A stretch of 64,000 bases of DNA from Eledone cirrhosa (taxonomy: Eukaryota): assembly GCA_964016885.1 (NCBI GenBank), contig OZ024742.1:337714001-337778000 (forward strand). The letters run 5' to 3'. Within the stretch, counting starts at the first letter, position 1; each line of letters starts with the position of its first letter. A program made the translations under genes and the position numbers. Below are positions 12,593 to 50,968 of the stretch, one piece after another. Below the pieces are notes generated by a model. It saw only the letters and a program-made list of their open reading frames with translations. It had not been told where the DNA came from and did not search any database.

Positions 12593-15500
12593 TTCAAGCT
12601 ATGTCCATATCAAATTTGAACAAGAGAGAACTCTGTAGTAAGTTGGGGGGGTTTGCATTTTAACCCTTTCGATACCCTATTTCTAACAAAAGACATTGGC
12701 TGCAATTTTCAAGTCAATTTGAAAAGAATGTAAAGAGATTTAGTAATACATCTAATTTTCCCATTATTAAGCTGCTGTTTGTTAACTTAAAGATTCTTAC
12801 ATAAACACTTTAAAACAACAGTTTTGTATCTCAGAACCAGAGCTGGTTTTTGGACATTTGGTATCAAAAGCATTACACCATCAAAATAGTTTTGTATCAT
12901 AGAACCATGAGTGATTTCAAGTGGGTTGGTATTAAAAAGGTCAAAAGTGAGAAAAAGAGAAACAAAAGAAATTGGCTTACATTTATTGCATCACTGTCGT
13001 TAGATTTTATAATTCCTCGCTGCCATGAATTTTCAACTTCCATAAGACATGGCAACCCAATAATAGCGTCTGTCTCTGCAAAAGACTCTAATGTATCAAC
13101 ACAGTTTTTTATTGCACTGAACAATTGTTCTGTGTCACTGTAATTATCTGATGGGGTCACGTAAAAGTCGTCTGGCGCAATGAAATTCAGCAATCTCACT
13201 TTGATACGGTTGCTGATTTCCATGTGCCAGTCTAGGAATGGTAAAAGTGGGTCGCCCTCTTCTATATCTCCCAAAGAACGCCTCAGATTTAATGGCTGGC
13301 AATCCTCAAAGGGATTCGAGATAGTTTCCATTCTAGAATCAGAGCAAGAGACAGAACTTTTTGGTTTTATCATATAGTTTGACATGAGGCTGGTGCTCAA
13401 ACTTTGATCTAAGTCTTCCCATTCACTAGGACTACAATCAAACAAGTCAGGTTCAAGAGGAGAGCTGCTGTCAACACTATGGGAAAACTCCACTGATTTA
13501 TCTGTAACAGCAGTGGTTTCGATATGGGTAGAGCTGATTAGATTGCTGTTGACATCACTGTTGTCTTTCAAAATGGCATTGGAAAGGTTCTCTTCTATAA
13601 TCTTTGGGCTCATCTTTTCAGTTAAATCCTTTTCTACATTTGTAATCATTTGGTCATTTTGATCAGCTGGACAGTTTTCAGTGATAGTTGTGCCATCATG
13701 GAATGCCTGATACCCATTACTCTTCTTCATACTTTCACTGTTGCTAGTGTTCAAATTCTTGGTATTATAGCTGTGAGGATCAACTGAAGAGTTTGGAATG
13801 TCAATGTCATCAAATGTATCTTGGTAGACATCCAAATCAGAATCTTCATTCTCTGTTGTTTTGATATCTGAACAGTGAAGAGTCGATTCAATGTCTGGAG
13901 AAACAAGGGTAGCTGATTCACTGTCTGGAGAGAGAATATCTGGAGACACAAGCGTAGCTGATTCACTGTCTGGAGAGACAATATCTGGAGAAACAAGGGT
14001 GGCTGATTCACTGTCTGGAGAGAGAATATCTGGAGAAACAAGCGTAGCTGATTCACTGTCTGGAGAGACAATATCTGGAGAAACAAGGGTGGCTGATTCA
14101 CTGACTAGAGACACAGCTGTAGTTGATTCGCTGTCTAGAGACACAGCTGCAATTGATTCACTGACTAGAGACACAGCTGTAGTTGATTCACTGTCTAGAG
14201 ACACAGCTGTAGTTGATTCACTGTCTAGAGACACAGCTGTAGTTGATTCACTGTCTGAAAGGACAACTGTAGTTGATTCACTGTCTGGAAAGACAACTGT
14301 AGTTGATTCACTGTCTGGAAGGACAACTGTAATTGATTCACTGTCTGGAAGGACAACTGTAGTTGATTCACTGTCTGGAAGGACAACTGTAGTTGATTCA
14401 CTGTCTGGAAGGACAACTGTAGTTGATTCACTGTCTGGAAGGACAACTGTAGTTGATTCACTGTCTGGAAGGACAACTGTAGTTGATTCACTGTCTGGAA
14501 GGACAACTGTAGTTGATTCACTGTCTGGAGAGACAACTGTAGTTGCTTCACTGTCTGGAGACACAACTGTAGTTGATTCACTGTCTGGAGACACAACTGT
14601 AGTTGATTCACTGTCTGGAGACACAACTGTAGTTGATTCACTGTTTGGAGAGACAACTGTAGTTGATTCACTGTTTGGAGAGACAACTGTAGTTGATTCA
14701 CTGTTTGGAGAGACAACTGTAGTTGATTCACTGTTTGGAGAGACAACTGTAGTTGATTCACTGTTTGGAGACATAGATGTACTTGCTTCGCTGTCTGGAG
14801 AGACAACTGTAGTTGATTCACTGTCTGGAGACACAACTGTAGTTGATTCACTGTCTGGAGACACAACTGTAGTTGATTCACTGTCTGGAGACACAACTGT
14901 AGTTGATTCACTGTCTGGAGACACAACTGTAGTTGATTCACTGTCTGGAGACACAACTGTAGTTGATTCACTGTTTGGAGACATAGATGTACTTGCTTCG
15001 CTGTCTGGAGATGCAGATATATTTGCTTCAGTTTCTAGGGACAAAAATTCAGTTGCTTCAATTTGTGAGGACTCAACATCAAGGGAGTGCTGATCCTGCA
15101 CTGCTTCGTCCTCCTGAGAGTCAGTGTCTTGTGATTCATTATCTATTAATACCTCATTATTTACTGACTGAACATCTGAAGAGACATCATCTGCTGAGCC
15201 AGCATCTATTAAGTTCAGATCGGAATAACTTTCTCCACATCCACTGTTTGGAGCAGTTTCATCACTTAAGAGAAACATTTGTGCAGTGAGACCCGAGGCC
15301 ATGCCACACTCTATCAGAATCTCTTGAAGAGGTTTATCATTGCCATCTTTTAAGTTAACCTGGTAAGCACTGTTAATCCTTTCGGTCAAAACTGACATAG
15401 TAAACACCTTTTCAGAAACAATCTCTTCAAAACCAGTGCACATATCTTCATCCCAGTAACTCTCACCTTTTGGTGTTACTTCAGCTAAACTACAGTGCAA

Positions 15501-30200: not shown

Positions 30201-30614
30201 GCCAAAACAAATACTGCTACATATTTCTCCGACGCTCTAATGGTTCTGCTAATCTACTACCCTAAATGAAAGAAGCAATAATCGTTTCCGACTTAGGTAC
30301 AAAGCCAACAATTTTTTGGGGGGGAGAGGAAAGTCAATTAAATCGACCCCAGTGCATAACTGGTGCTTTATTTTACCGACCCTGACAAGATAGGAGGCAA
30401 AGCTAACCTTGACGGGATTTGAACTGAGAATGTAAAGGGTTGTATGCCACGAAGCATGTTGTCCAATGCTCTACCGATACTGGCAATCCACTGCCCTAAT
30501 GAAAGAAGTAATGATATAAGAGTCACTTACCGAGTTTTCACAGAAAGTTGAGATTTAGAATATCCCTCCCCCGGGGATATTACAGGCATCATAATGAAGC
30601 TGAAGTAGTTATGC
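8202..30614 (-). CDS. Multi-exon gene for a large multi-Tudor-domain protein (Tudor/TDRD6/TDRD15-like, piRNA/germ-granule scaffold type), about 2,800 aa with 10 extended Tudor domains; 5' end may lie further upstream
   Basis: Exons 30531-30614, 28584-28852, 23617-27270, 22050-23121, 18911-19000, 12981-15858, 11646-11811, 8286-8495 and 8202-8215 join in frame through GT-AG introns (phases 2,1,1,2,2,0,1,1). Repeated motifs of the form SPxxFW(C/V)Q...C(L/V)A(K/Q)(F/Y)xxDxxWYRA...V(L/R)FVDYGN...F..LP..A..C.L. Orthology cannot be assigned from sequence alone. Confidence 0.9.
8286..8495 (-). CDS. Tudor gene exon (end of the last extended Tudor domain)
   Basis: gtaagt donor; acceptor is either AAG (exon start 8495) or an in-frame CAG (start 8486); encodes ...YGVYLY...NLNDRLIDLGHA. 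Confidence 0.8.
8827..9190 (+). mobile_element. tRNA-derived CORE-type SINE
   Basis: Near-identical to 5425-5841, with A and B boxes. Confidence 0.85.
9995..10870. pseudogene. Decayed RTE (Expander-like) LINE fragment with inverted 5' part
   Basis: Minus 9995-10480 reads FADG..LL and VERFKYLGVIFTSNG; plus 10480-10870 continues IAGASAIM...FVPTVTYGHES. Confidence 0.7.
10905..11280 (-). mobile_element. Tandem copies of a second tRNA-SINE family (Meta-domain-like body)
   Basis: Minus strand has B box GAGTTCAAATC(C) followed by GCCTTTCATCCTTACGGGGTCGATAAAATAAAGTACCAG. Confidence 0.75.
11646..11811 (-). CDS. Tudor gene exon (C-terminal half of Tudor 10)
   Basis: tttcag acceptor, gtaact donor; VLFVDIG...PPAMSIHCYL. 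Confidence 0.85.
12661..12875. mobile_element. Older TTAA-type MITE; relics also near 560-800 and 1660-1830
   Basis: ttaaccctttcgatacc...ggtatcaaaagc; internal gagatttagtaata...attattaag shared with the relics. Confidence 0.55.
12981..15858 (-). CDS. Tudor gene large exon (Tudor 9, acidic Ser/Thr repeat region, start of Tudor 10)
   Basis: ORF 12897-15908 trimmed to the atttgtag acceptor and gtaagc donor; PCLAKYSEDGVLYRAEIV...IFCDYGN. Confidence 0.9.
13890..15010 (-). repeat. Coding minisatellite: about 30 copies of a 30-bp unit (SPDSESTTVV) plus 4-5 copies of a 45-bp unit (SPDSESATLVSPDI[V/L])
   Basis: Unit ctgtctggagacacaactgtagttgattca is directly visible at 30-bp period inside the Tudor exon. 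Confidence 0.97.
15955..16740 (+). pseudogene. Decayed RTE LINE 3' fragment (PHD-RT family)
   Basis: Similarity to 52600-53420 (KKGLGRNS; LEVVDTFYYLGD; LCWYGHV remnants). Confidence 0.7.
16843..17018. mobile_element. piggyBac-type MITE, decayed copy
   Basis: ttaacccattaacatttac...gggttaa; internal similarity to 19581-19809. Confidence 0.65.
18289..18640. mobile_element. MITE, inverted copy of 7763-8107
   Basis: tactcttgggccc...gacccgagagta. Confidence 0.7.
18645..18868 (+). mobile_element. 5'-truncated CORE-type SINE
   Basis: Matches the 3' half of 48081-48424. Confidence 0.8.
18911..19000 (-). CDS. Tudor gene 90-bp exon (WTGQMKVKECKEENLYVVSLLHAEVSTSYCR), absent from the ORF track
   Basis: ctctctttag acceptor, gtgagt donor, phase 2/2 matches both neighbours, open frame. 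Confidence 0.8.
19100..20010 (+). pseudogene. Decayed RTE LINE 3' fragment interrupted by a TTAA MITE (19581-19809), with a short about 30-bp tandem repeat at 19808-19905
   Basis: Reads ...TVESVLLYGCERWTLT and LAGHC; MITE ends taaatgctaaagggttaa. Confidence 0.65.
21087..21124 (+). ncRNA. Minimal type I hammerhead-like motif (G8>A variant) in a short orphan PLE-like end
   Basis: GCAT-CTGAAAA-G-AGGG ttatag CCCT-GAAA-TA-TC-GTGC. Confidence 0.55.
22050..23121 (-). CDS. Tudor gene exon (Tudor domains 7 and 8)
   Basis: ttttcag acceptor, gtaagt donor; TPENFWCQ...FYRGKV...LVDFGN. Confidence 0.9.
23617..27270 (-). CDS. Tudor gene large exon (3,654 bp; rest of Tudor 1 through Tudor 6)
   Basis: ORF 23567-27244 extended to the tttcag acceptor at 27271; gtaagt donor at 23616; repeated WYRA and DYGN/DFGN motifs. 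Confidence 0.93.
27678..27960 (+). mobile_element. CORE-type tRNA-SINE with a different 3' body
   Basis: TGGCTTAGTTG, GAGTTCAATTCC, CCTTGAGCAAGGTACTTTATTTC. Confidence 0.7.
28584..28852 (-). CDS. Tudor gene exon (N-terminal half of Tudor domain 1)
   Basis: ttttcag acceptor, gtaagt donor; encodes VMITHVTSPQYFHCQ...PCVAQYSMDKSWYRAKV. Confidence 0.9.
29153..29460. repeat. Intronic 23-bp minisatellite (about 13 copies)
   Basis: Unit ctaaataccacaacgacct(g/a)tat with polarised variants. Confidence 0.92.
29680..30498 (-). mobile_element. Cluster of 3-4 tandem Meta-domain-like tRNA-SINE copies
   Basis: Repeated ttttatcgacccc...gatgaaaggcaaagttaacctc...gatttgaactcaga. Confidence 0.75.
30531..30614 (-). 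CDS. Tudor gene exon, most 5' exon found (HNYFSFIMMPVISPGEGYSKSQLSVKTR; contains a possible ATG ATG start)
   Basis: tttcag acceptor and gtaagt donor; only one of three frames is open; phase-2 end CG|G matches the next exon. Confidence 0.72.
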
Positions 30615-31182
30615 CTGAAATGTAAACAAAATAACATTTAATAGGGCTTCAATATTACTTAAGAGGTACAACAACAAATTTAAGGCAATTTCTCTGCTAA
30701 AACTGAGATTAGCCTTGTAGGGTCCCATAATAGGCACCATACTCATCATGGAGTTCTTTTTGTGGCAATGTTTTACAGCTGGATACTTTTCCTGCCACCA
30801 ATCCTTTTAGTTCCCTTTTATAACATATAAGGATACAGTGTACATATTATATACTGGATACCATAGAGATATTGTTACAATAAATTTTAGCATTTATTTT
30901 CTTAAGATAAAAGTATCAAGAGAGAAGATATAGATTTGTTTCATACCAGAATATGGCTTCTTTGGGCATTGGAAAGAAAATATATCATCAGTTTAATAAA
31001 TTGTCACATCTTTTTAGCTTCTTTATTCTTATCACTAGAAATCCAATTAAAGAATGTATTCTCTTTGTTTAAACAGGTATGAAGTTCACTTCAGATGTGG
31101 TTGTAGGTTCCCACTATAGTGGTAGGCAGAAACTCTAACAAAACCCCTTGCATCGGTGTGTGTGTCTGTATGTTTATGTGTA

Positions 31183-31299
31183 TATATATATATCATCATC
31201 ATCTTCGTTTAACGTCCATCTTCCACGCTAACATGGGTTAGACGGGAGTTGTCCCACTTGAGGCAAGGTTGGTCGGGTGACCGTGTCTCGCTCATATAG

Positions 31300-31349
<50 letters not shown>

Positions 31350-31466
31350 CTATATGAGCGAGACACGGTCACCCGACCAACCTTGCCTCAAGTGGGACAA
31401 CTCCCGTCTAACCCATGTTAGCGTGGAAGATGGACGTTAAACGAAGATGATGATGATATATATATA
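31183..31466. repeat. Perfect 284-bp palindrome centred on (TA)22
   Basis: 31183-31302 is the exact reverse complement of 31347-31466 (checked base by base). Confidence 0.97.
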
Positions 31467-33480
31467 CCACCTCGTGAAAACACACAAACAGGGACCCGAA
31501 CTGAAAATCAGGCCCATCGTATCGAGCGTGGAGGGACCACTCTACAAAATTTCATGGCTCCTAGCCAGAATACTCAAACCCATCTTAGACACCTTGCCGG
31601 GACACGTTAACAGCTCCGAGGAGGTGTTGGAGCGCCTGCATCAAATGGATCCCGACACCAGAAGGAATAACAGATATGCCTTCAGCCTTGATGTAGTCGC
31701 TCTCTACACCTCGGTCCCGGCACTCCCGGCCGTCAATATACTAATGGAACGCGTCCAATCCACCGACCTACACTGCTTCGGGCTCACCACCACTTACATC
31801 CACCAACTCCTATCCATCGTCGTCGACAACACCTACTTCGGATTCCTTGACCAAATATACCAACAAACCTCGGGATTGCCCATGGGATCAAGCCTATCAG
31901 GTGTGCTAGCGATCTCCTACATGGACAACCTCGAACGCAAGGCACTCAACGCCTGCCACCCCAACGGCGTAGCCTTTTTCTCAAGATACGTGGACGATAT
32001 CATCATCCTCACATCTTCCCAAGACACGTCGAACAGAATCTATGAGACGTTCAACAACACGGACGAGAACATTGACTTCAGTGTTGAACACCCCAACGAA
32101 GACGGGTCACTTGCCCTCCTCGACTTCCAAATCAACATCACGGAACAAGGAGGGATGCACTGCAACTTCTACCGAAAGGCAGCCTGCAGGGACCTATTCG
32201 TTCACTACAAGTCCGCCCTCCCTAACAGTGCCAAAAGAGGATACATCACGAACGAGATCGCGCGAATCAAAAACAGATGCAGCGATCCCGCGAGTGGTGT
32301 CACTCATACCAAGCGATTCCTCGAGGTGCTGGAGACGATCACAGACAGAATAGGAGACACCAGACGCAAGAGACAGAGAAGCACCCAAGGCAAGTGCTTC
32401 CTTAAAATGCCACACCTGGGCGAGAAAACCACCAACGCTATCCGCAAGGCTATACGGAGGAAGGGCCTCGACATCCACCTGGCCCACTCGGGGCCCCTCC
32501 CTGCGAAGATGCCTCTCCAGGAAACCCGAAAAATCTACTGACGCATGCTCCCTCAGAGACTGCCCGATACGCCATGCTAACTGTTGCCTACGCACATACG
32601 TCGTGTATAAGATAGAATGTGACAGGTGCAACCAATACTACATAGGTAGCACAATTCGACCTTTGCACATCCGGATCAAGGAACACACTAAAACCAGGGC
32701 CTCGTCTTTCCGGAAACACATAGACAAATGCGGAAACAAAGACGGAAGGCCCATTGTCACAATTCTAGCGACTGAAAGAAACGTTGGCACGTTACGTATC
32801 AAGGAAGCGCTTTTTATCAAACGACTGCAACCGCAAATAAACAACCGATCAGAGAGAAGCGAAATGAAATGGCTGGTTTAAGTTAACAAGCGATGCAACA
32901 ACACACAACACACGCACGCAAACGAGACAACTACACACACCCACACACAGTAGCATTCCACCATACGAACATACTACACTGCCAATACAGATGAACAAGG
33001 CAACAACACACACACACAGTAACATTTAACAAACAGGCAGAGAATGGACTGACAGCTAGCGCCATCCCACTCCCTCATTCGGCCGCTGACCTCTGTACGA
33101 CCGTCCCATTTCACGCGCACGCGCGCTCTGCCGAATACCTCAGATATTCAAAACAACAAACAGCGAAAGACGCGTTCCGGGCTTGTCCGACAGACAACCT
33201 TTTCCCCCACCCCGGAAAAAACCCCAGTTGATGGATGTGAATCCGAAATATATAGGGACTATTAAATCTCTCCCAAGGTAACTCTCTCTTGTGTTGTTAT
33301 TTTTATTTTAACCTTTATACTCTTCCCTCATTCTACACATCTCACGCATCTTATACACACCACGCATCTCAACGTACACCCAATTACATCTTTCTCTCCA
33401 CCACCGGACCTTGTTACCCGGAGATTTACCCATTTGCATTGTCGAGGCTTCCAAACGACTTAAAGATATATATATATATA
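31465..33480 (+). mobile_element. 5'-truncated Penelope-like retroelement (RT plus C-terminal GIY-YIG endonuclease), frameshifted near 32500
   Basis: YHLVKTHK, RPIVS, SLDVVALYTSVP, GLPMGSSLS, RYVDDI, FYRK; VYKIECDRCNQYYIGST..LHIRIKEH...EALFIKRLQPQIN. Confidence 0.92.
33222..33257 (+). ncRNA. Variant minimal hammerhead-like motif in the PLE 3' region
   Basis: CCC-CAGTTGA-T-GGAT gtga ATCC-GAAA-TATA-TA-GGG; two core substitutions relative to CUGANGA. Confidence 0.6.
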
Positions 33481-35449
33481 GCAAAGTGATAGTAATGGTG
33501 CCACGATAAAATGCACCCAACCCACACTGTAAAGTGGAAGTTCCAAAGTCACAATAAAATGCACCCAGTAAATACTATAAAGTGTTTGCTGTTAGGAAGA
33601 ACACCCTACCATAGAAATCATGCCAAACTGGAAAGTATGAACAAGATGTAGCCATCCAACCTGTCCAGCCTGCCCTATCTATGCCAGCATGGAAAACCAG
33701 TCTATGATGATGATTATGTGTGTGTGTGTGTGTGTGTGTACATGAGTTTGTGTATGTACGTCAGTCACTGCAAAAATCATTGATACTGTTTATAAATGCC
33801 AGTAGTGACACAGTTTATACCCCCCCCCCACCACAAACAAAGCAGTGGTGCAATGAATATCAATGTTATATGCCACACTTAGAATAAAGTATGGGTTGAT
33901 GTCAGGAAGGGTATTTCCTATAATAGCTTCATGTTTCCAAAATAAAGACAATGCTTGAATCACTTGTTCCAACATGTCACTATAGCATTGCAAATCAAAA
34001 CAATGTCCCATCTAATTATGAACACCCAAAATGGATTATGTATAAAAAAGAAAGAAAACAAATGTGATATTTATAATGTGAGTGTGTATATGTGTGTTTT
34101 AAACAAATGTTTCTTTTCTATAATTTAACACATGGCATTTATAAAATGTTCTGTCTTATATAATGTGTTGAATCTGTCCACTTGTCCCACAAGATGTTAA
34201 AGTTTAGTAATTCTATGTAGTTATTAGAAGTTGTCATTGAGATAAGCTGACAGCACTATCAGACAACACAATTGTCTATATCTCCTCTCTCTATTCCTAT
34301 CCTTGTAGACCAAGCTGTCTGTCAAAATTTCTTGCACCCACTTTGTCTCCTCGCTGTTCAAAACATTAATTTTGAATGGCCTGCCTCAAGTATAGCAGTA
34401 AAATATCTCATCATCATTGTCATTTTAACATCCACTTTCCCAGCTAGCAAGTCTACATAGACCAAGTCAGTACTGAAGCGGAGCCACTGATCTTCCAGGC
34501 AAGCCAGGGATCTGTGTCTAGCTTTATTTACGGCCAATGCTCCACTCAGTGCACAGGAAAGGTCGTCATGTCTTTGGCACAACCCTTTTGTTTGGCAAGA
34601 TTTCCATGGTTGGATGCCCTTCCTATCACCAACCACTTTAGTATAACTTCAAAGATGTACATCTTTCTACAATTTCACTGCAGAGAGAAGATTGAGCAGC
34701 CTTGACTCTTGATGTTTAGTAATGGAAATCAATGTGATGCAATTTTATCATATTATGAAAACTGTTGATAATATTGGAGCCTCTTAAGCTCTTTGGAGAT
34801 TGTTTCAATTTCCAAATCAACAAATACATCCAGCCATTGAATGTTTGCCAATACCCAGCAAGCAAATCATGTTTGATCCAAATCATACACAGAAGGTGCT
34901 TAAATGTAACCATCCAACAAAACTGAGTTTATTTTAAGAAAAATTAAGTGTAGCTCCAAGCATAAAAAAAACTTTATAGTGATTTTCTGCAATATTACAC
35001 TTGGCATAATATATGTAAATCATTGTAAAGAGATTCCAGAATTGATTGGCAGAATTTATACACAGCATCCTGTGAAGGAACAACTATTTTACCATAGGTT
35101 ATTATTTTACCATAACACAGGAGCTACAGGTTTAACCATGTTTCCTGCCAACAATATAAGGCTGTCAAGGTATTAAGCACACATAAATGACAAATCTTTC
35201 AGATAATAATAAAAAATGGAAGCAATGCTTGAATAAAGCCAGAACTGAATATTCTGGTTCAGAAGATTTCCTGATGATTACATTTATGAAAGAAGATAAG
35301 AAAATATTAACGATATAAACCAGATTTAGAGAATGTAGCATGGGTTGAGGCATACAACTAGTATGCACCACTTTATCCTCCATACCTCACTCATGTCATA
35401 ACACTCCATCGATGTTCTAACACCCTCAGCCATGCCCCTAGATCTACCA

Positions 35450-38875: not shown

Positions 38876-41800
38876 CAGTGGTCGCCAACATGGATTCCGT
38901 AAAACAAACTCCGGGTTCCTTAAAAAAATAAATATTTACATTACCATTAATATTTTGGGTTTTCTGAAAAAGGTGCAAAGAAAATGCTAAAGGTGCAATG
39001 TATAAATGAACAAGTACTATTGTAGCGTACACAGGTTCCCCACTCCAATTCGTGGAAAACACTACTTTCAGTTTCTCACTTGAATTAGCAGAAAAACACT
39101 GTTCTGAGATTCGTGGAAATTGAATACTTTCAATTTCACATCAATTCTTGGAAAGACATAGTTTTCTGAATTCCGAGAATTTGACTACTACTGATAATAC
39201 ACTAATTGAACTTAGAAATTGACCAATCACGAACAAGTAAATGTTGGTCGATGACAGCATAACTTTAAACAGAAAACTTCAGTTCAGCGAGGTCTCTCAG
39301 CCAAGAGATAGGGTCAGTTCGCTGTTCTCACAACGTAAGTTCAGTAGAATGTTTTCAATAGAGAACACGTTTTAATCTGCTGCCCTCACAAAAGCTTTAA
39401 AGTCGTCTAAAGTTTCCTCACTGAGTGAACTCGCTTACTAGTCGTTTTCAACATGCATCCAGTTCCACAGACAATTCTAAATAAGAACACGTTACATTCT
39501 GTTGTATTTTGCACAGAAAATATAACGCCTGTAAAGTTTCGACTACTAACAAAGGTAATTTTGTATTCCATGCATACACTATAAACTTTGCCACACAATT
39601 ATGTATTCATTTGATGACATCTGCATTCGCAATTGAGAAATTGCTTTATACAATAAATATATATGTCCACAAACATTTGACTAAACTTTATTTGTTCCAA
39701 TCTAATATATGTTTAACGCAGCCTAAAGCCTTCTTATATTATATCTAACTTTGAGTCAAAATAGATAGAAGATATCTGAATTAATTTCCAATACCATCGT
39801 CACATCTACACTATCAGCTGATTTGCATTTTTTGCACCTTTTAGTATGGCGGATATTTAAATATATTTACATTACCAATAATATTTAATACGACCCTAAA
39901 GTAGTATATGCAGGAAGTGCTGGACTCTGAAAAAGAATTTTTCTAGTTGTTCATAAATTTGCACCTTTTTCAGTAACCCCTAATATTTTAATATTATTAT
40001 AAGACTTTAAATAATATGTTTGCCATCCTAAAATGGAGAAATTTCAATTTTTAAAAATTAAAATTTTTTTTAACTAGTTAAGTTTTTCCAAATATCTAAA
40101 ATTTAAGTACTTTTTGTAATTAAAAAAACTTAATTTCTCTTGTTTATTAATGTCATATTAAAAAATGTTAACTGTAGATAAATAACATTGATATGATGTC
40201 TACTGCAAAGAAGCTGAAGTTAGATACCAGCAGTAAGGTTAGACAGTGGTGTGATGATTATGTTAGATATGGATTTCAAAAAGCTGACACTAAAAAAGAT
40301 ACACCAGATCAGCCCATGTGTTTGCTATGTTCAAAAGTTCTATCAAATAGCTGTTTAAATCCTGCAAAACTTAAAAGACACCTTGATACTAATCACACCA
40401 ATGATAAAAGCAAGTCACTGGAATACTTTACTTCGCTGAAAAACAACATTAAAAAAATCACAAGCTAATATGTATGACTTGTTTTGTAAAAAGTCAGATA
40501 GAAATAAAGCTTTAACAAGAACATCTTTTGAGATTTCACATTTGATTGGTAAAAACAAGAAACCATTTACATTAGGAGAACAGTTAATTCTACCAAGTAT
40601 AAAAATTGCTACAGAGAATCTTTTTGAAAGCTGCAGTATTAAGGACAAAGAAAAATTAAGCCAGTTACCATTGTCAGCAAATACCGTAAAAAGAGGGATA
40701 ATTGATATTTCTTCTGATATTGAAAATCAGATACTAACTGCACTAAAGAAAAGCCCATGTTTTGGACTGCAAGTGGACGAAACTACGGATATTAATAACA
40801 AGGCTCAATTAATTTGCTATGTACGGTTTGTAGACCTTGATAAAAAAGAATTAGTAGAAGAGTATTTGTTTTGTCTGGCATTAGACATCACAACTAAAGG
40901 TCAAGATATATTCAATAAAATTGAAGAGTATTTTTTTTTAAATGGTGTATCTTGGAGCAAGTTGACTTCAATAACAACAGATGGAGCAGCTGCAATGACT
41001 GGTAAAAATTCTGGTTTGATTGCAAAAATTAAAGAACAGACCCCAAATTGTATTTCAAATCATTGTATGATTCATCGAGAGGTTTTGTGTTAAAAAAAAT
41101 TCAAAGACAGAGATGCTCAAATATTAAATGACCAGCTGAAAGACATTGTCAAAATTATCAATTTGATCCATGCAAGAGCAAAAAATTCTAGAATGTTTGA
41201 ATCTATTTGTGAATCTTCTGGAAGTAATTATAATAGATTGTTATTGAACAATGATGTGCGTTGGCTGTCTTTTGGGGATGCTATGAAGAGAGTTTTTGAA
41301 CTGAGAGAAGAAATAATAGTTTTTCTAAAAAAAACAGAATGATGAAAGAGCAGGTGTATTAGAAACCAATGAATGGAATGTGCAACTCGCTTATTTAGTA
41401 GACATTTTTGGTGAACTGAACAAACTAAATAAGTGTCTTCGAGGTAACAATGCAGATATTTTTACTTCAATCAATTTTATTACATATTTTCAATCAAAAT
41501 TAAACATCTTTATAAAAAGAATTGAATCGGACAATTACTTTCAAACCTTGAAATAGAGCTTAAAAAGAGAGAAAATTTTGACTCCAGCAATCTAAAGAAG
41601 ATTATTCTTTCTCATTTAAATGTGCTTTCCACAGGTTTTTCAGATTATTTTGACTTGATGGAAAAAGATATTGTTAGCGGAAATTTATGGATAAAAAACC
41701 CGTTCACCGAGATCGAGCAGTTAGTGTCAGAAAATGACGCTGGAAATTGTAAAAATTTACTACCTGCCCAATGCTTACATCAGTTGATGGATTTGAATTC

Positions 41801-42230
41801 AAACGAAGACCTGAAAGAGATATTCGAAAGCAGAAAGAAAGAACTATGGATCGACTTATTCTTGATTGGGGAGTTTAATGAAATCAGCCAACTTGCATTG
41901 AAGTATTTGACTTTATTCCCATCTCGCTATTTGTGCGAAAAAGGGTTTTCGCAGTTGGTGGAAATCTGCACAAAGAAGAGGAATAAACTGTCAGCAATTG
42001 ACGAGTGTATGAGACTGGCATTAACTAGTGTTGAACCTCGATTTTCTAAACTCACTGATGAGGCGCAGCAGCAGAAAAGCCATTGTGTTCGATTACATAC
42101 ACACGCATGAAACACTAAAATAAATAAATACTTTATTATTTTTTTTGAAAAGTTTTGTATTGTATAGGTTCCGTGAAGAATTAAAAATATTTAGAGGGTT
42201 CCTCGGTTTTAGAAAGGTTGGCGACCACTG
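38876..42230 (+). mobile_element. Full-length Buster-subfamily hAT DNA transposon (3,355 bp)
   Basis: 14-bp TIRs CAGTGGTCGCCAAC / GTTGGCGACCACTG; 8-bp TSD CCCTAGGC (38868-38875, 42231-42238) with central TA. Confidence 0.95.
40193..42110 (+). pseudogene. hAT transposase (BED finger plus DDE domain, TcBuster/ZBED5-like), disrupted by frameshifts and stops
   Basis: CLLC..LKRHLDTNH, LQVDETTD, TDGAAAM, HCMIHRE, VRWLS, YLCEKGFS spread over several frames. Confidence 0.92.
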
Positions 42231-48865: not shown

Positions 48866-50968
48866 AAGAGAACAAAACAGTGAGTACATTAAATTATTAC
48901 ACCTAAAAGACTTAAAACTTAGACCTATTATAGCTGGTCCAACATGCCCCACTCACCGTCTAAGCAATTTTGTTGACATTATTTTGAAACCACTATGTAT
49001 TCACATACCCAGTTTCATCCGGGATGATATCGACTTCCTGTCCCATCTTCCCAAAACCACGGAAACGAATTCACTTCTACTCAGTTTTGATGTGGTAAGC
49101 CTTTACACCAACATTACACATGATTTAGGAATAAAGGCGGTTAAATACTGGGTGGAAAAACAGAGAAGTGATTCCCATTAGATTCACAGCGCCATTTATA
49201 TTAGACGCAGTTAAACTTATTCTGGAAAACAACACTTTCTTCTTCAATGGAAAGAATTACATCCAAATTAGAGGCACAGCGATGGGAACGAAGTTTGCTC
49301 CCGTTTACGCGAACTCTGTAATGGGATATTTAGAACAACTCTACCAAGAAATAGAGGAAAAATATAGTACTGACTTTAGAAAGCATTGAAAAATCTTGGA
49401 AGAGATACCTTGACGACTGTTTCATCATCTGGACAGAATCTCTAGATACTCTGGATGAGTTCAATATCCTCCTGAATAACCTACACCCATCTCTCCAATT
49501 CACAAAAGAGATGAGTAGGACCAAATTACCATTCCTAGATTTAATGATAATCAAAAACGACACCACCATTACCACGGATATATATTATAAACACACAGAC
49601 ACCCATCAATATCTGAATTTTAAGTCGTGCCATCCACCTCATACAAAACGCAACATCCCATACTGCCTAGCCAGAAGAATTTGTACCATTGTAGAAGATA
49701 CGAATACCAGGTACAAACGCCTAACAGAACTAAGAGAATTTTTGCTCAAACAAAAATACCCATCTCTACTTATAGAAAATGGCATACAGCGGGCTATAAA
49801 AATACCTATACAACAACTTAGAACAACCCAAGGAAGAAGAGACCAAGAACTGGTCATACCATTTATAATGACACACAACCCATGTCACCAGAATATATTC
49901 AACACTGCCAAAGCAAACCTACCGATCATTGCTCAAAGTAATGAATTAAAAGGCTTAATCACAGATCGATCTTTGACTCTTAGTAAAAGACAGCCAAAAA
50001 ATTTGAAGCAATTGCTAACAAAAGCAAAGTTTGACCTTAACAACAAAGACCAATCATTCACTGTATCTAAATGCAATGATAATCGATGCGGCACATGTCA
50101 ATCCATACACGCCGGTCAATATATGAAAACAAAAACTGGAAAAATATTCCCAAATGCAAATATGAACTGCAAAAGCAGAAATCTAATTTACTGCATTAAA
50201 TGCCCGAATTGTGAAGAACTATATGTCGGTCAAACTGGAAATGCACTATCGGAACGTGCACGGGTACACCGTCAACAAATCAGAGACCCAAATGTCCGTC
50301 AGATACCCCTAAGCGGCCACCTGGCAACATGTGGTCAGGGAATATTTATAATATTCCCATTCTACAAATTACACAGCCCAAGTGAAATCAAGAGAAAAAT
50401 CAAAGAAAAGAATTTTATTGATAAATTCAAACCCAAGCTAAATGAACAGTAATAACGCCTAGGGGTATTACTTCTACTACCACTATGACCACAACAACAA
50501 CAACAATAATAATAATAAAAGTGATGTTGATGGTGATGATTAATAGAAAATGCTATTTTCATCATTTCAAAAAGCAAAACAATTGATACGTTGGGTATGA
50601 CTATTGGTCGTTAGCATGCTCAACCAGCCGTGACGCTTAAACCAATCAGCTGTAGTAATTCAGTGAAACTACACACTGATTGGTTGAAATACAGTTTACA
50701 GGGCTTTGCATTCTGGAGCCACTTTTCTCTGTATAAAATGTATAAAAGGTAGTAAATTTACCCATCTCATTACAGTTGAAAATTGCAAACTCGACTGTCA
50801 CCACATATCATGAACCTGAAGATTGCGAAAGCATGAAAGTACTTGTTCAATTCACACTTAGAATTTAATATTCTATCATACTATTTCATTATAATACCAT
50901 ATTATATATATTTTAAAGGATTGTGAATAAAACGAGTAAATCAGACAAAGTTGCAATTCATCTTATTA
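48866..50968 (+). mobile_element. 5'-truncated Penelope-like retroelement (Neptune-like; RT, Cys-rich linker, GIY-YIG), frameshifted
   Basis: [42 protein letters not shown]; CxxxxCxxC linker; NLIYCIKCPNCEELYVGQT. Confidence 0.92.
50811..50849 (+). ncRNA. Minimal type I hammerhead ribozyme motif (PLE-associated)
   Basis: TGAAC-CTGAAGA-t-TGC gaaa GCA-t-GAAA-GTAC-TT-GTTCA: perfect 5-bp stem I, intact core boxes, palindromic stem III. Confidence 0.8.

What the first reader, a model, noticed from the sequence alone, without database searches (positions are those of the whole stretch)
31183..31466. Perfect 284-bp palindrome at the 5' junction of a PLE: snap-back copying of target DNA
Seen: 120-bp arms with no mismatch around (TA)22, made of a truncated SINE/LINE tail, ending exactly where the PLE RT frame begins (TAC microhomology). 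Inference: the target was cut in self-complementary (TA)n, the free 3' end folded back and copied about 120 nt of flank, then jumped to the PLE cDNA. PLEs are known for inverted copies of their own termini; here the inverted segment appears to be flanking host repeat. It would form a perfect RNA hairpin or DNA cruciform about 0.6 kb from the most 5' Tudor exon found.
Basis: partly seen in the sequence, partly recalled or inferred. Interest (0 to 1): 0.72.

Follow-up and report, generated by a model that had tools for sequence, protein, structure and literature searches.

The report
Fold-back scar at Penelope insertion junction
A perfect 284-base mirror repeat sits at the front end of a young Penelope-type jumping gene in an octopus genome, and it was likely made when the cut chromosome end folded back on its TA repeat and copied its neighbour during insertion, a by-product already described for human L1 elements.

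Summary
The palindrome is in the assembly as described: 120-bp identical arms around (TA)22, ending at the 5' truncation of a young, TA-targeting Penelope-like element (PLE). Each arm is a 109-bp LINE/SINE 3' tail plus 11 nt of TA, so host repeat, not PLE. The strict microhomology is TA, not TAC. It is one of a class: 4 TA-centred inverted duplications with arms of 20 bp or more in 1 Mb of sampled DNA (control 0.4), some aged. Three others join flank copies directly to 5'-truncated elements (L022, L259, L318); eight end in another TA tract. Only 1 of 61 other simple 5' junctions of this family has one, so it is a rare outcome. Best reading (0.62): fold-back synthesis at the free TA end during PLE insertion, as published for L1 and yeast breaks; separate TA repair gives the same product. 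Reads could not test it: the sampled animal likely lacks this PLE copy. It lies 569 bp upstream of a Tudor gene's start-codon exon; no function shown. The scan noted the same scar in another genome. New member of a known kind; interest 0.3.

The parts
31183..31466 (.). Perfect 284-bp palindrome (142 + 142)
31181..31193 (.). Left TA tract (13 nt); inner 11 nt are mirrored in the right arm
31194..31302 (-). Left arm, inferred original: 5'-truncated LINE/SINE 3' tail with (ATG)3 end
   Evidence: 100% to L031 over 109 nt; other copies break at the same point into TA (L044, L052, L082)
31303..31346 (.). (TA)22 centre, inferred fold-back point
31347..31455 (+). Right arm, inferred inverted copy of the left arm
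   Evidence: 0 mismatches, same tail length and same truncation point
31456..31466 (.). Right TA tract (11 nt); last two bases are the TA shared with the PLE
   Evidence: 29 other PLE loci read TA at this position
31465..33470 (+). 5'-truncated Penelope-like element: RT (Pfam RVT_1), GIY-YIG, 3' pseudo-LTR; 18-bp deletion after 32335 and a 1-bp frameshift near 32490
   Evidence: 1193-1656 first-look candidates in the genome
33466..33480 (.). TA tract at the PLE 3' junction (primed end, inferred)
33481..33712 (+). Older, diverged repeat tail ending in ATG repeats; right flank of the insertion site
   Evidence: families D11, D15, D18; read by eye
30531..30614 (-). Start-codon exon (ATG at 30592) of a multi-Tudor gene, with an AG acceptor-like site before it; context only
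   Evidence: 20 of 21 residues match the N-terminus of P0001, an Octopus vulgaris Tudor protein

Best explanation
The palindrome is an inverted copy of the neighbouring LINE/SINE tail, likely made during the insertion of the adjacent Penelope-like element, when the free target end folded back in its self-complementary TA repeat, was extended about 120 nt and was then joined to the truncated cDNA through a shared TA. Shown: the anatomy, the host origin of the arms, the family's TA targeting, the 2-nt overlap, and the same anatomy at other insertions. Inferred: a PLE cut on both strands of the TA tract right of the tail; priming of reverse transcription on the right end; fold-back and extension of the left end; end joining. 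An equivalent route (the cDNA end invades the left TA tract and copies back to the break) gives the same letters and cannot be told apart. The polymerase (host or PLE RT) is unknown. It is likely a neutral scar.
For: Arm ends exactly at the PLE 5' truncation. Arms identical in tail length and truncation point, while tail lengths vary among the 30 tail loci, so one was copied from the other. Direct analogues: L022, same family, 12-bp flank copy round a TA tract joined at the element's 5' end with a GA overlap; L259, from the unselected sample, about 46-bp aged flank copy plus a 28-bp direct re-copy joined straight to a 5'-truncated PLE of another family; L318, 13-bp copy joined by TTC to a truncated repeat. 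Chance adjacency is unlikely: the 1-Mb sample has 3142 TA tracts and only 3 loci with this family, none with a readable simple 5' junction. Ages agree: the copy differs from the column majority at 11 of 1413 sites, 6 of them shared with its sister L061; zero arm mismatches has probability 0.15-0.55 at such ages. Precedent: L1 inverted duplications at the reciprocal end primed by TA/AT (10.1101/2024.12.14.628481, section 9); 10-150-bp fold-back copies joined with median 2-bp microhomology at yeast breaks (PMC11724301, section 15); a PLE protein cuts and extends both strands of AT-rich DNA in vitro (PMC11167929, passages).
Against: The right arm ends in TA, the default junction of this family (38 of 63), so no fold-back is needed to explain the join. 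Eight other TA-centred inverted copies end in another TA tract without touching a 5' truncation (L041, L082, L135, L167, L176, L317, L319, L320), so fold-back also happens otherwise. Enrichment at 5' junctions is not shown: 1 of 61 against 5 of 3142 tracts (Fisher p = 0.11) or 5 of 439 isolated tracts (p = 0.54). No pre-insertion allele was seen; the assembly holds the left flank once.
Confidence: 0.62

Rival explanations
1. Fold-back repair or template switching at the TA tract, independent of the PLE: the segment between two TA tracts was copied backwards and synthesis returned to the TA tract, before or after the PLE arrived.
For: Gives identical letters. X-(TA)n-inverted x-(TA)m is the commonest form seen elsewhere (8 cases). 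AT/TA repeats form hairpins and cruciforms that are cut in vivo (PMC12972899, abstract).
Against: Needs two young events at one tract; this family is rare among TA tracts. Most of the 8 cases also lie beside ends of TA-targeting repeats, so they too may be insertion by-products.
Confidence: 0.2
2. The palindrome was made when the LINE/SINE tail itself inserted: its short cDNA joined the TA target, folded back and copied itself (snap-back), and the PLE is a neighbour in the same tract.
For: The arm ends match the tail's own boundaries. L082 shows repeated short inverted copies at the same truncation point with no PLE of this family; L047 is a tail followed by a 33-bp inverted tail end. cDNA snap-back is described for R2 (PMC11371274, passages).
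Against: Two pattern searches covering centres up to about 68 nt found no other long-armed palindrome at this truncation point; L044 and L052 break at the same point with no inverted copy.
Confidence: 0.12
3. Assembly or read artefact (fold-back chimera at the TA tract).
For: No independent read spans it; no listed contig piece of X1-X3 bridges 31466.
Against: Both outer ends continue into different, sensible sequence. The class has members with mismatched arms (L259 3 of 34, L305 2 of 40, L291 1 of 35, L135 3 of 340), which chimeras would not give. The missing junction is explained if sample S1 lacks this PLE copy.
Confidence: 0.05

Closest known systems
[quoted passage not shown] 4D-E; section 9 read; passages)
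   Same: Inverted copy of flank beside the 5' end of a TPRT insertion; self-annealing on TA/AT; joined to the cDNA end.
   Different: PLE with GIY-YIG endonuclease, not L1; fold point is a whole (TA)22 tract, not 2 bp; present in a reference genome and seemingly polymorphic, not a somatic or induced event.
Local fold-back inversions at double-strand breaks in yeast (PMC11724301; abstract and section 15 read)
   Same: Short templated inverted copy (10 to over 150 bp), 0-5 bp microhomology at the capture end.
   Different: No retroelement; 41-nt loop there, zero loop here.
Snap-back 5' junctions of R2-mediated insertions (PMC11371274; passages)
   Same: Extra inverted synthesis before 5' junction formation, sometimes on nearby target DNA.
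   Different: Primed by the cDNA 3' end and mostly copying cDNA; site-specific element in cultured cells.
Canonical inverted pLTR or inverted 5'-truncated copy of endonuclease-bearing PLEs (PMC8557442, passages and section 11; PMC3846280, passages)
   Same: Inverted segment at the 5' end of the insertion; common in this family.
   Different: There the inverted part is the element's own 3' end; here it is host repeat round a TA centre.

Membership tests
Reciprocal-end inverted duplication (L1 type) | Inverted copy of flanking genomic DNA directly at the insertion's 5' side | tested here: met
Reciprocal-end inverted duplication (L1 type) | Self-annealing homology at the fold point | tested here: met
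   (TA)22, zero loop
Reciprocal-end inverted duplication (L1 type) | End joining to cDNA with little microhomology | tested here: met
   TA, 2 nt
Reciprocal-end inverted duplication (L1 type) | Short duplication between the primed and reciprocal breakpoints | tested here: inconclusive
   Both breakpoints lie in TA tracts, so a duplication cannot be read
Reciprocal-end inverted duplication (L1 type) | Duplication and insertion arise in one event (parental allele lacks both) | not testable with these tools
   No empty allele in the assembly; contigs are cut at the repeats
Canonical PLE inverted terminus | Inverted segment is the element's own sequence | tested here: not met
   No PLE match in 31183-31464; it matches a LINE/SINE tail
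C-terminal EN+ Penelope-like element (the adjacent insert) | RT followed by GIY-YIG endonuclease in one ORF | tested here: met
   Pfam RVT_1 3.5e-11, GIY-YIG 6.1e-05; one long frame in relative L062
C-terminal EN+ Penelope-like element (the adjacent insert) | Partial tandems, pseudo-LTRs, inverted truncated copies, one-sided tail | tested here: met
C-terminal EN+ Penelope-like element (the adjacent insert) | Hammerhead ribozyme in the pseudo-LTR | tested here: inconclusive
   No Rfam hammerhead at E up to 1 in 30900-33800; a degenerate core near 33230-33270 seen by eye, motif recalled
Hydra clade of PLEs | DKG changed to DKT, CCHH absent, CxCX5C linker (PMC8557442 section 11) | tested here: not met
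   L062 translation keeps DKG, has CxxC plus two His in the endonuclease and a CX4CX6CC linker (read by eye; His positions recalled); no tree built
Hydra clade of PLEs | Insertion into (TA)n | tested here: met
MITE or fold-back transposon | The palindrome recurs as a unit at many sites | tested here: not met
   One long-armed site only
microRNA or hairpin-siRNA gene | Match to a known family at gathering score | tested here: not met
   All Rfam matches are below gathering score and rest on the TA loop
microRNA or hairpin-siRNA gene | Transcribed and processed to small RNA, or edited | not testable with these tools
   No RNA holder listed

The most novel reading that the evidence does not exclude
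TA-targeting Penelope elements are a genome-wide source of brand-new perfect hairpins: cutting in a self-complementary tract makes fold-back of the free end routine, which would account for most of the roughly ten thousand TA-centred inverted duplications estimated here, and would feed double-stranded RNA to ADAR and small-RNA pathways in an animal known for heavy editing (recalled). This copy would be a segregating hairpin in the 5' region of a multi-Tudor gene that alters its transcript.
Probability: 0.15. Interest if true: 0.62.

Novelty: new member of a known kind. Interest (0 to 1): 0.3.

Why it matters
It extends to Penelope-like elements a by-product known from L1, R2 and plain double-strand breaks, and implies that PLE insertion leaves a free, untethered target end, a point on which PLE mechanism is still open (PMC8557442, PMC11167929). 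Because the target is self-complementary, such scars are countable genome-wide and could serve as a natural read-out of 5' joining. For this one locus there is no evidence of function; its place 569 bp upstream of a Tudor start-codon exon and the likely polymorphism make it an easy allele comparison.

Tried and rejected
Reads: contigs of X1-X4 and RAD reads of X10 could not test the palindrome; the tool skips the TA regions and no listed piece bridges 31466. The left-flank contig of X1-X3 runs 48-51 letters past 31152, which would fit a tail being present there, but the letters are not shown, so it is not used as evidence. Joints from 31466 to 33498-33508 have 20-22 letters a side in ubiquitous repeats and were set aside. 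No RNA holder listed. Search for a second haplotype with the left flank: only the locus itself matched in full. Inverted repeats at PLE junctions L104, L114, L242 and L234 were rejected as flank fold-backs: L104, L242 and L234 lie in multi-copy repeats that have their own inverted parts, L114 is an older diverged repeat pair; L234 stays ambiguous. L204 has a 22-bp hairpin with no TA centre 12 bp from the junction, not counted. Two independent tail insertions head to head: rejected, since tail length and break point are identical. Segmental duplication with sister L061: rejected, flanks differ. The short pattern counts (5 vs 4, 4 vs 3) are not above control and serve only to list sites. The first census was swamped by simple repeats and was redone. 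Pfam found nothing in the L259 frames; its PLE status rests on relatives' RT-like frames read by eye and an Atlas cluster with 18% GIY-YIG. A genome-wide count of tail-out LINE/SINE pairs with wide spacing, and a junction sample from the second PLE family, remain undone.

Full report
Observation. Window 31183-31466 is a perfect palindrome, 142 + 142 nt with no loop, centred on (TA)22 at 31303-31346. It is the only complex perfect palindrome of half-length 25 or more in the window and folds at -272 kcal/mol as RNA, z = -41. The genome is an octopus: the neighbouring gene's best relative is an Octopus vulgaris multi-Tudor protein at 87% identity.

What the arms are. Each arm is 11 nt of TA, an (ATG)3 tail and about 100 nt of a 3' end found 836 times at first look. 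The best other copy, L031, is identical over 109 nt and continues into an RT-like frame of a LINE (the RTE label for this type is recalled, not tested); most of the 30 loci continue into another body after 257 bp, so the tail is shared with a SINE. L044, L052 and L082 break at the same point into TA without a long inverted copy, so this break point is a common one. Tail lengths vary among copies but are identical in the two arms, so one arm was copied from the other.

The adjacent element. 31465-33470 is a 5'-truncated PLE with RT and GIY-YIG domains, starting at position 1269 of a 3374-bp relative. The family is young (0.6-2.0% from the column majority in 21 copies) and abundant (1193-1656 candidates). 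Its ends sit in TA tracts, and many copies carry the textbook inverted copy of their own 3' end. It keeps DKG and lacks the CxCX5C linker, so it is not a Hydra element as defined in PMC8557442 section 11, though it shares their target. All 29 other loci read TA just before 31467, so the overlap with the arm is TA; TAC would need a slip of one unit. The window copy has a sister 95 kb away (L061) sharing four variants seen in no other of the 21 copies, with different flanks.

Is it one of a class? In 100 stretches of 10 kb taken at round coordinates (1 Mb, 3142 TA tracts), 5 tracts have complex inverted arms of 10 bp or more and 4 of 20 bp or more; pairing flanks at random gives 1.7 and 0.4; 0 of 556 CA/TG and 0 of 133 GA/TC tracts have any. 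Four per Mb (Poisson range 1.1-10.2) would be about 12,000 in 3 Gb, range 3,000-31,000, computed by hand. Three of the five have mismatched arms, which argues for real, aged events. A pattern search found five more at this PLE's own 3' end, control 0. Of the cases inspected outside the window, three join the inverted flank copy directly to a truncated element (L022, L259, L318), eight end in another TA tract (L041, L082, L135, L167, L176, L317, L319, L320) and six are unassigned (L049, L081, L119, L291, L305, L316). L259 is the clearest: it came from the unselected sample, and its five fetched relatives all continue upstream of the point where L259 starts.

How often at PLE 5' junctions? Of 63 simple 5' ends of this family in the loci held, 38 abut TA; leaving out this locus and L135 (an arm end, not a junction), 1 of 61 (L022) has a TA-centred flank palindrome. 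That is not a significant excess over TA tracts in general (p = 0.11 and 0.54). The loci are the best-scoring hits of five queries, not a random draw. So fold-back of flank is a rare outcome, and this is the longest case at a junction in the sample.

Reads. Sample S1 (X1-X3, one study) covers both unique flanks at depth 6-12, yet at 31967 and 32157, where the window copy and its sister differ from the family, all laid depth carries the other letter in all three runs, and no listed piece bridges the arm-PLE junction. The simplest reading is that S1 lacks this copy, so the insertion is likely polymorphic; the tool warns that a hole proves nothing. The palindrome itself is neither supported nor refuted by these reads.

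Mechanism. Most likely (0.62) the PLE cut the TA tract beside an existing tail, primed reverse transcription on the right end, and the left end, ending in self-complementary TA, folded back, was extended through the tail into the next TA tract and was joined to the cDNA by TA. This favours coupling because direct analogues exist, because this family touches very few TA tracts (3 loci in 1 Mb) and because both features are young. It is not proven, since the copy ends in TA: fold-back repair unrelated to the PLE (0.2) or made when the tail inserted (0.12) gives the same letters; artefact 0.05.

Comparison with what is known. The same outcome is reported for L1, including TA/AT priming (10.1101/2024.12.14.628481; passages and section 9 seen), for yeast breaks (PMC11724301; abstract and section 15) and, from the cDNA end, for R2 (PMC11371274; passages). 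For PLEs the papers seen describe inverted copies of the element itself and palindromes at those junctions (PMC3846280, passages; PMC8557442, passages and section 11) and two-strand cutting of AT-rich DNA (PMC11167929, passages). PMC12972899 was seen as abstract only. Six literature searches (listings of at most 20 each) showed no report of flank fold-back at PLE junctions; supplements were not read, and those of the bioRxiv preprint are closed and may hold more examples. Earlier unreviewed notes of this scan describe the same scar in another genome and TA fold-backs in this one; they are not counted as support.

Gene context. The palindrome is 569 bp upstream of the exon holding the Tudor start codon (30531-30614, minus strand). 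An acceptor-like AG before that exon suggests a 5'-UTR intron, in which case the hairpin and an antisense PLE would be in the pre-mRNA; this is inference, no RNA was available. Rfam microRNA matches are all below gathering score.

Verdict. Real in the assembly, ordinary in kind, a clean example. New member of a known kind; interest 0.3.

Noticed in passing
L061 (G000:C3, about 95 kb downstream) and window 31465-33470: Sister PLE copies share four exclusive variants and are truncated only 32 bp apart, with unrelated flanks; possibly the same burst or local hopping.
   Followed up: partly
L082:1380-1550 and L084:1070-2620: TA tracts broken by many repeats of a 5-7-nt word, in both orientations in L084; in L082 the word is the inverted start of the truncated tail, as if fold-back happened many times over.
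   Followed up: partly
L135:2140-2870: 340-bp inverted copy of a PLE 3' end round a TA tract, then a 20-bp sense piece of the endonuclease region, then TA: several template jumps in one scar.
   Followed up: partly
L047:1495-1646: LINE/SINE tail followed directly by a 33-bp inverted tail end, tails pointing outwards, no PLE.
   Followed up: partly
L063, L203, L244, L327 (PLE 5' junctions): Four of 63 junctions have (GA)n between the TA tract and the element; only L063 has a matching (CT)n on the other side.
   Followed up: no
L259:4830-6070: A second abundant PLE family (1441 candidates) with a CxCX5C linker as in the Hydra clade.
   Followed up: partly
window 33230-33270: Degenerate hammerhead-like core in the pseudo-LTR, not recognised by Rfam.
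   Followed up: no
window 49355-50452: A second, unrelated GIY-YIG-bearing element (Pfam 1.6e-06), 5' side next to a long TA-rich array.
   Followed up: no
window 13889-15011: A 30-bp unit repeated 31 times plus a 45-bp unit lie in frame inside a large exon of the Tudor gene, coding a Ser/Thr/Val-rich repeat.
   Followed up: no
window 40440-42110: Fragments that look like a DNA transposase (read by eye, not tested).
   Followed up: no
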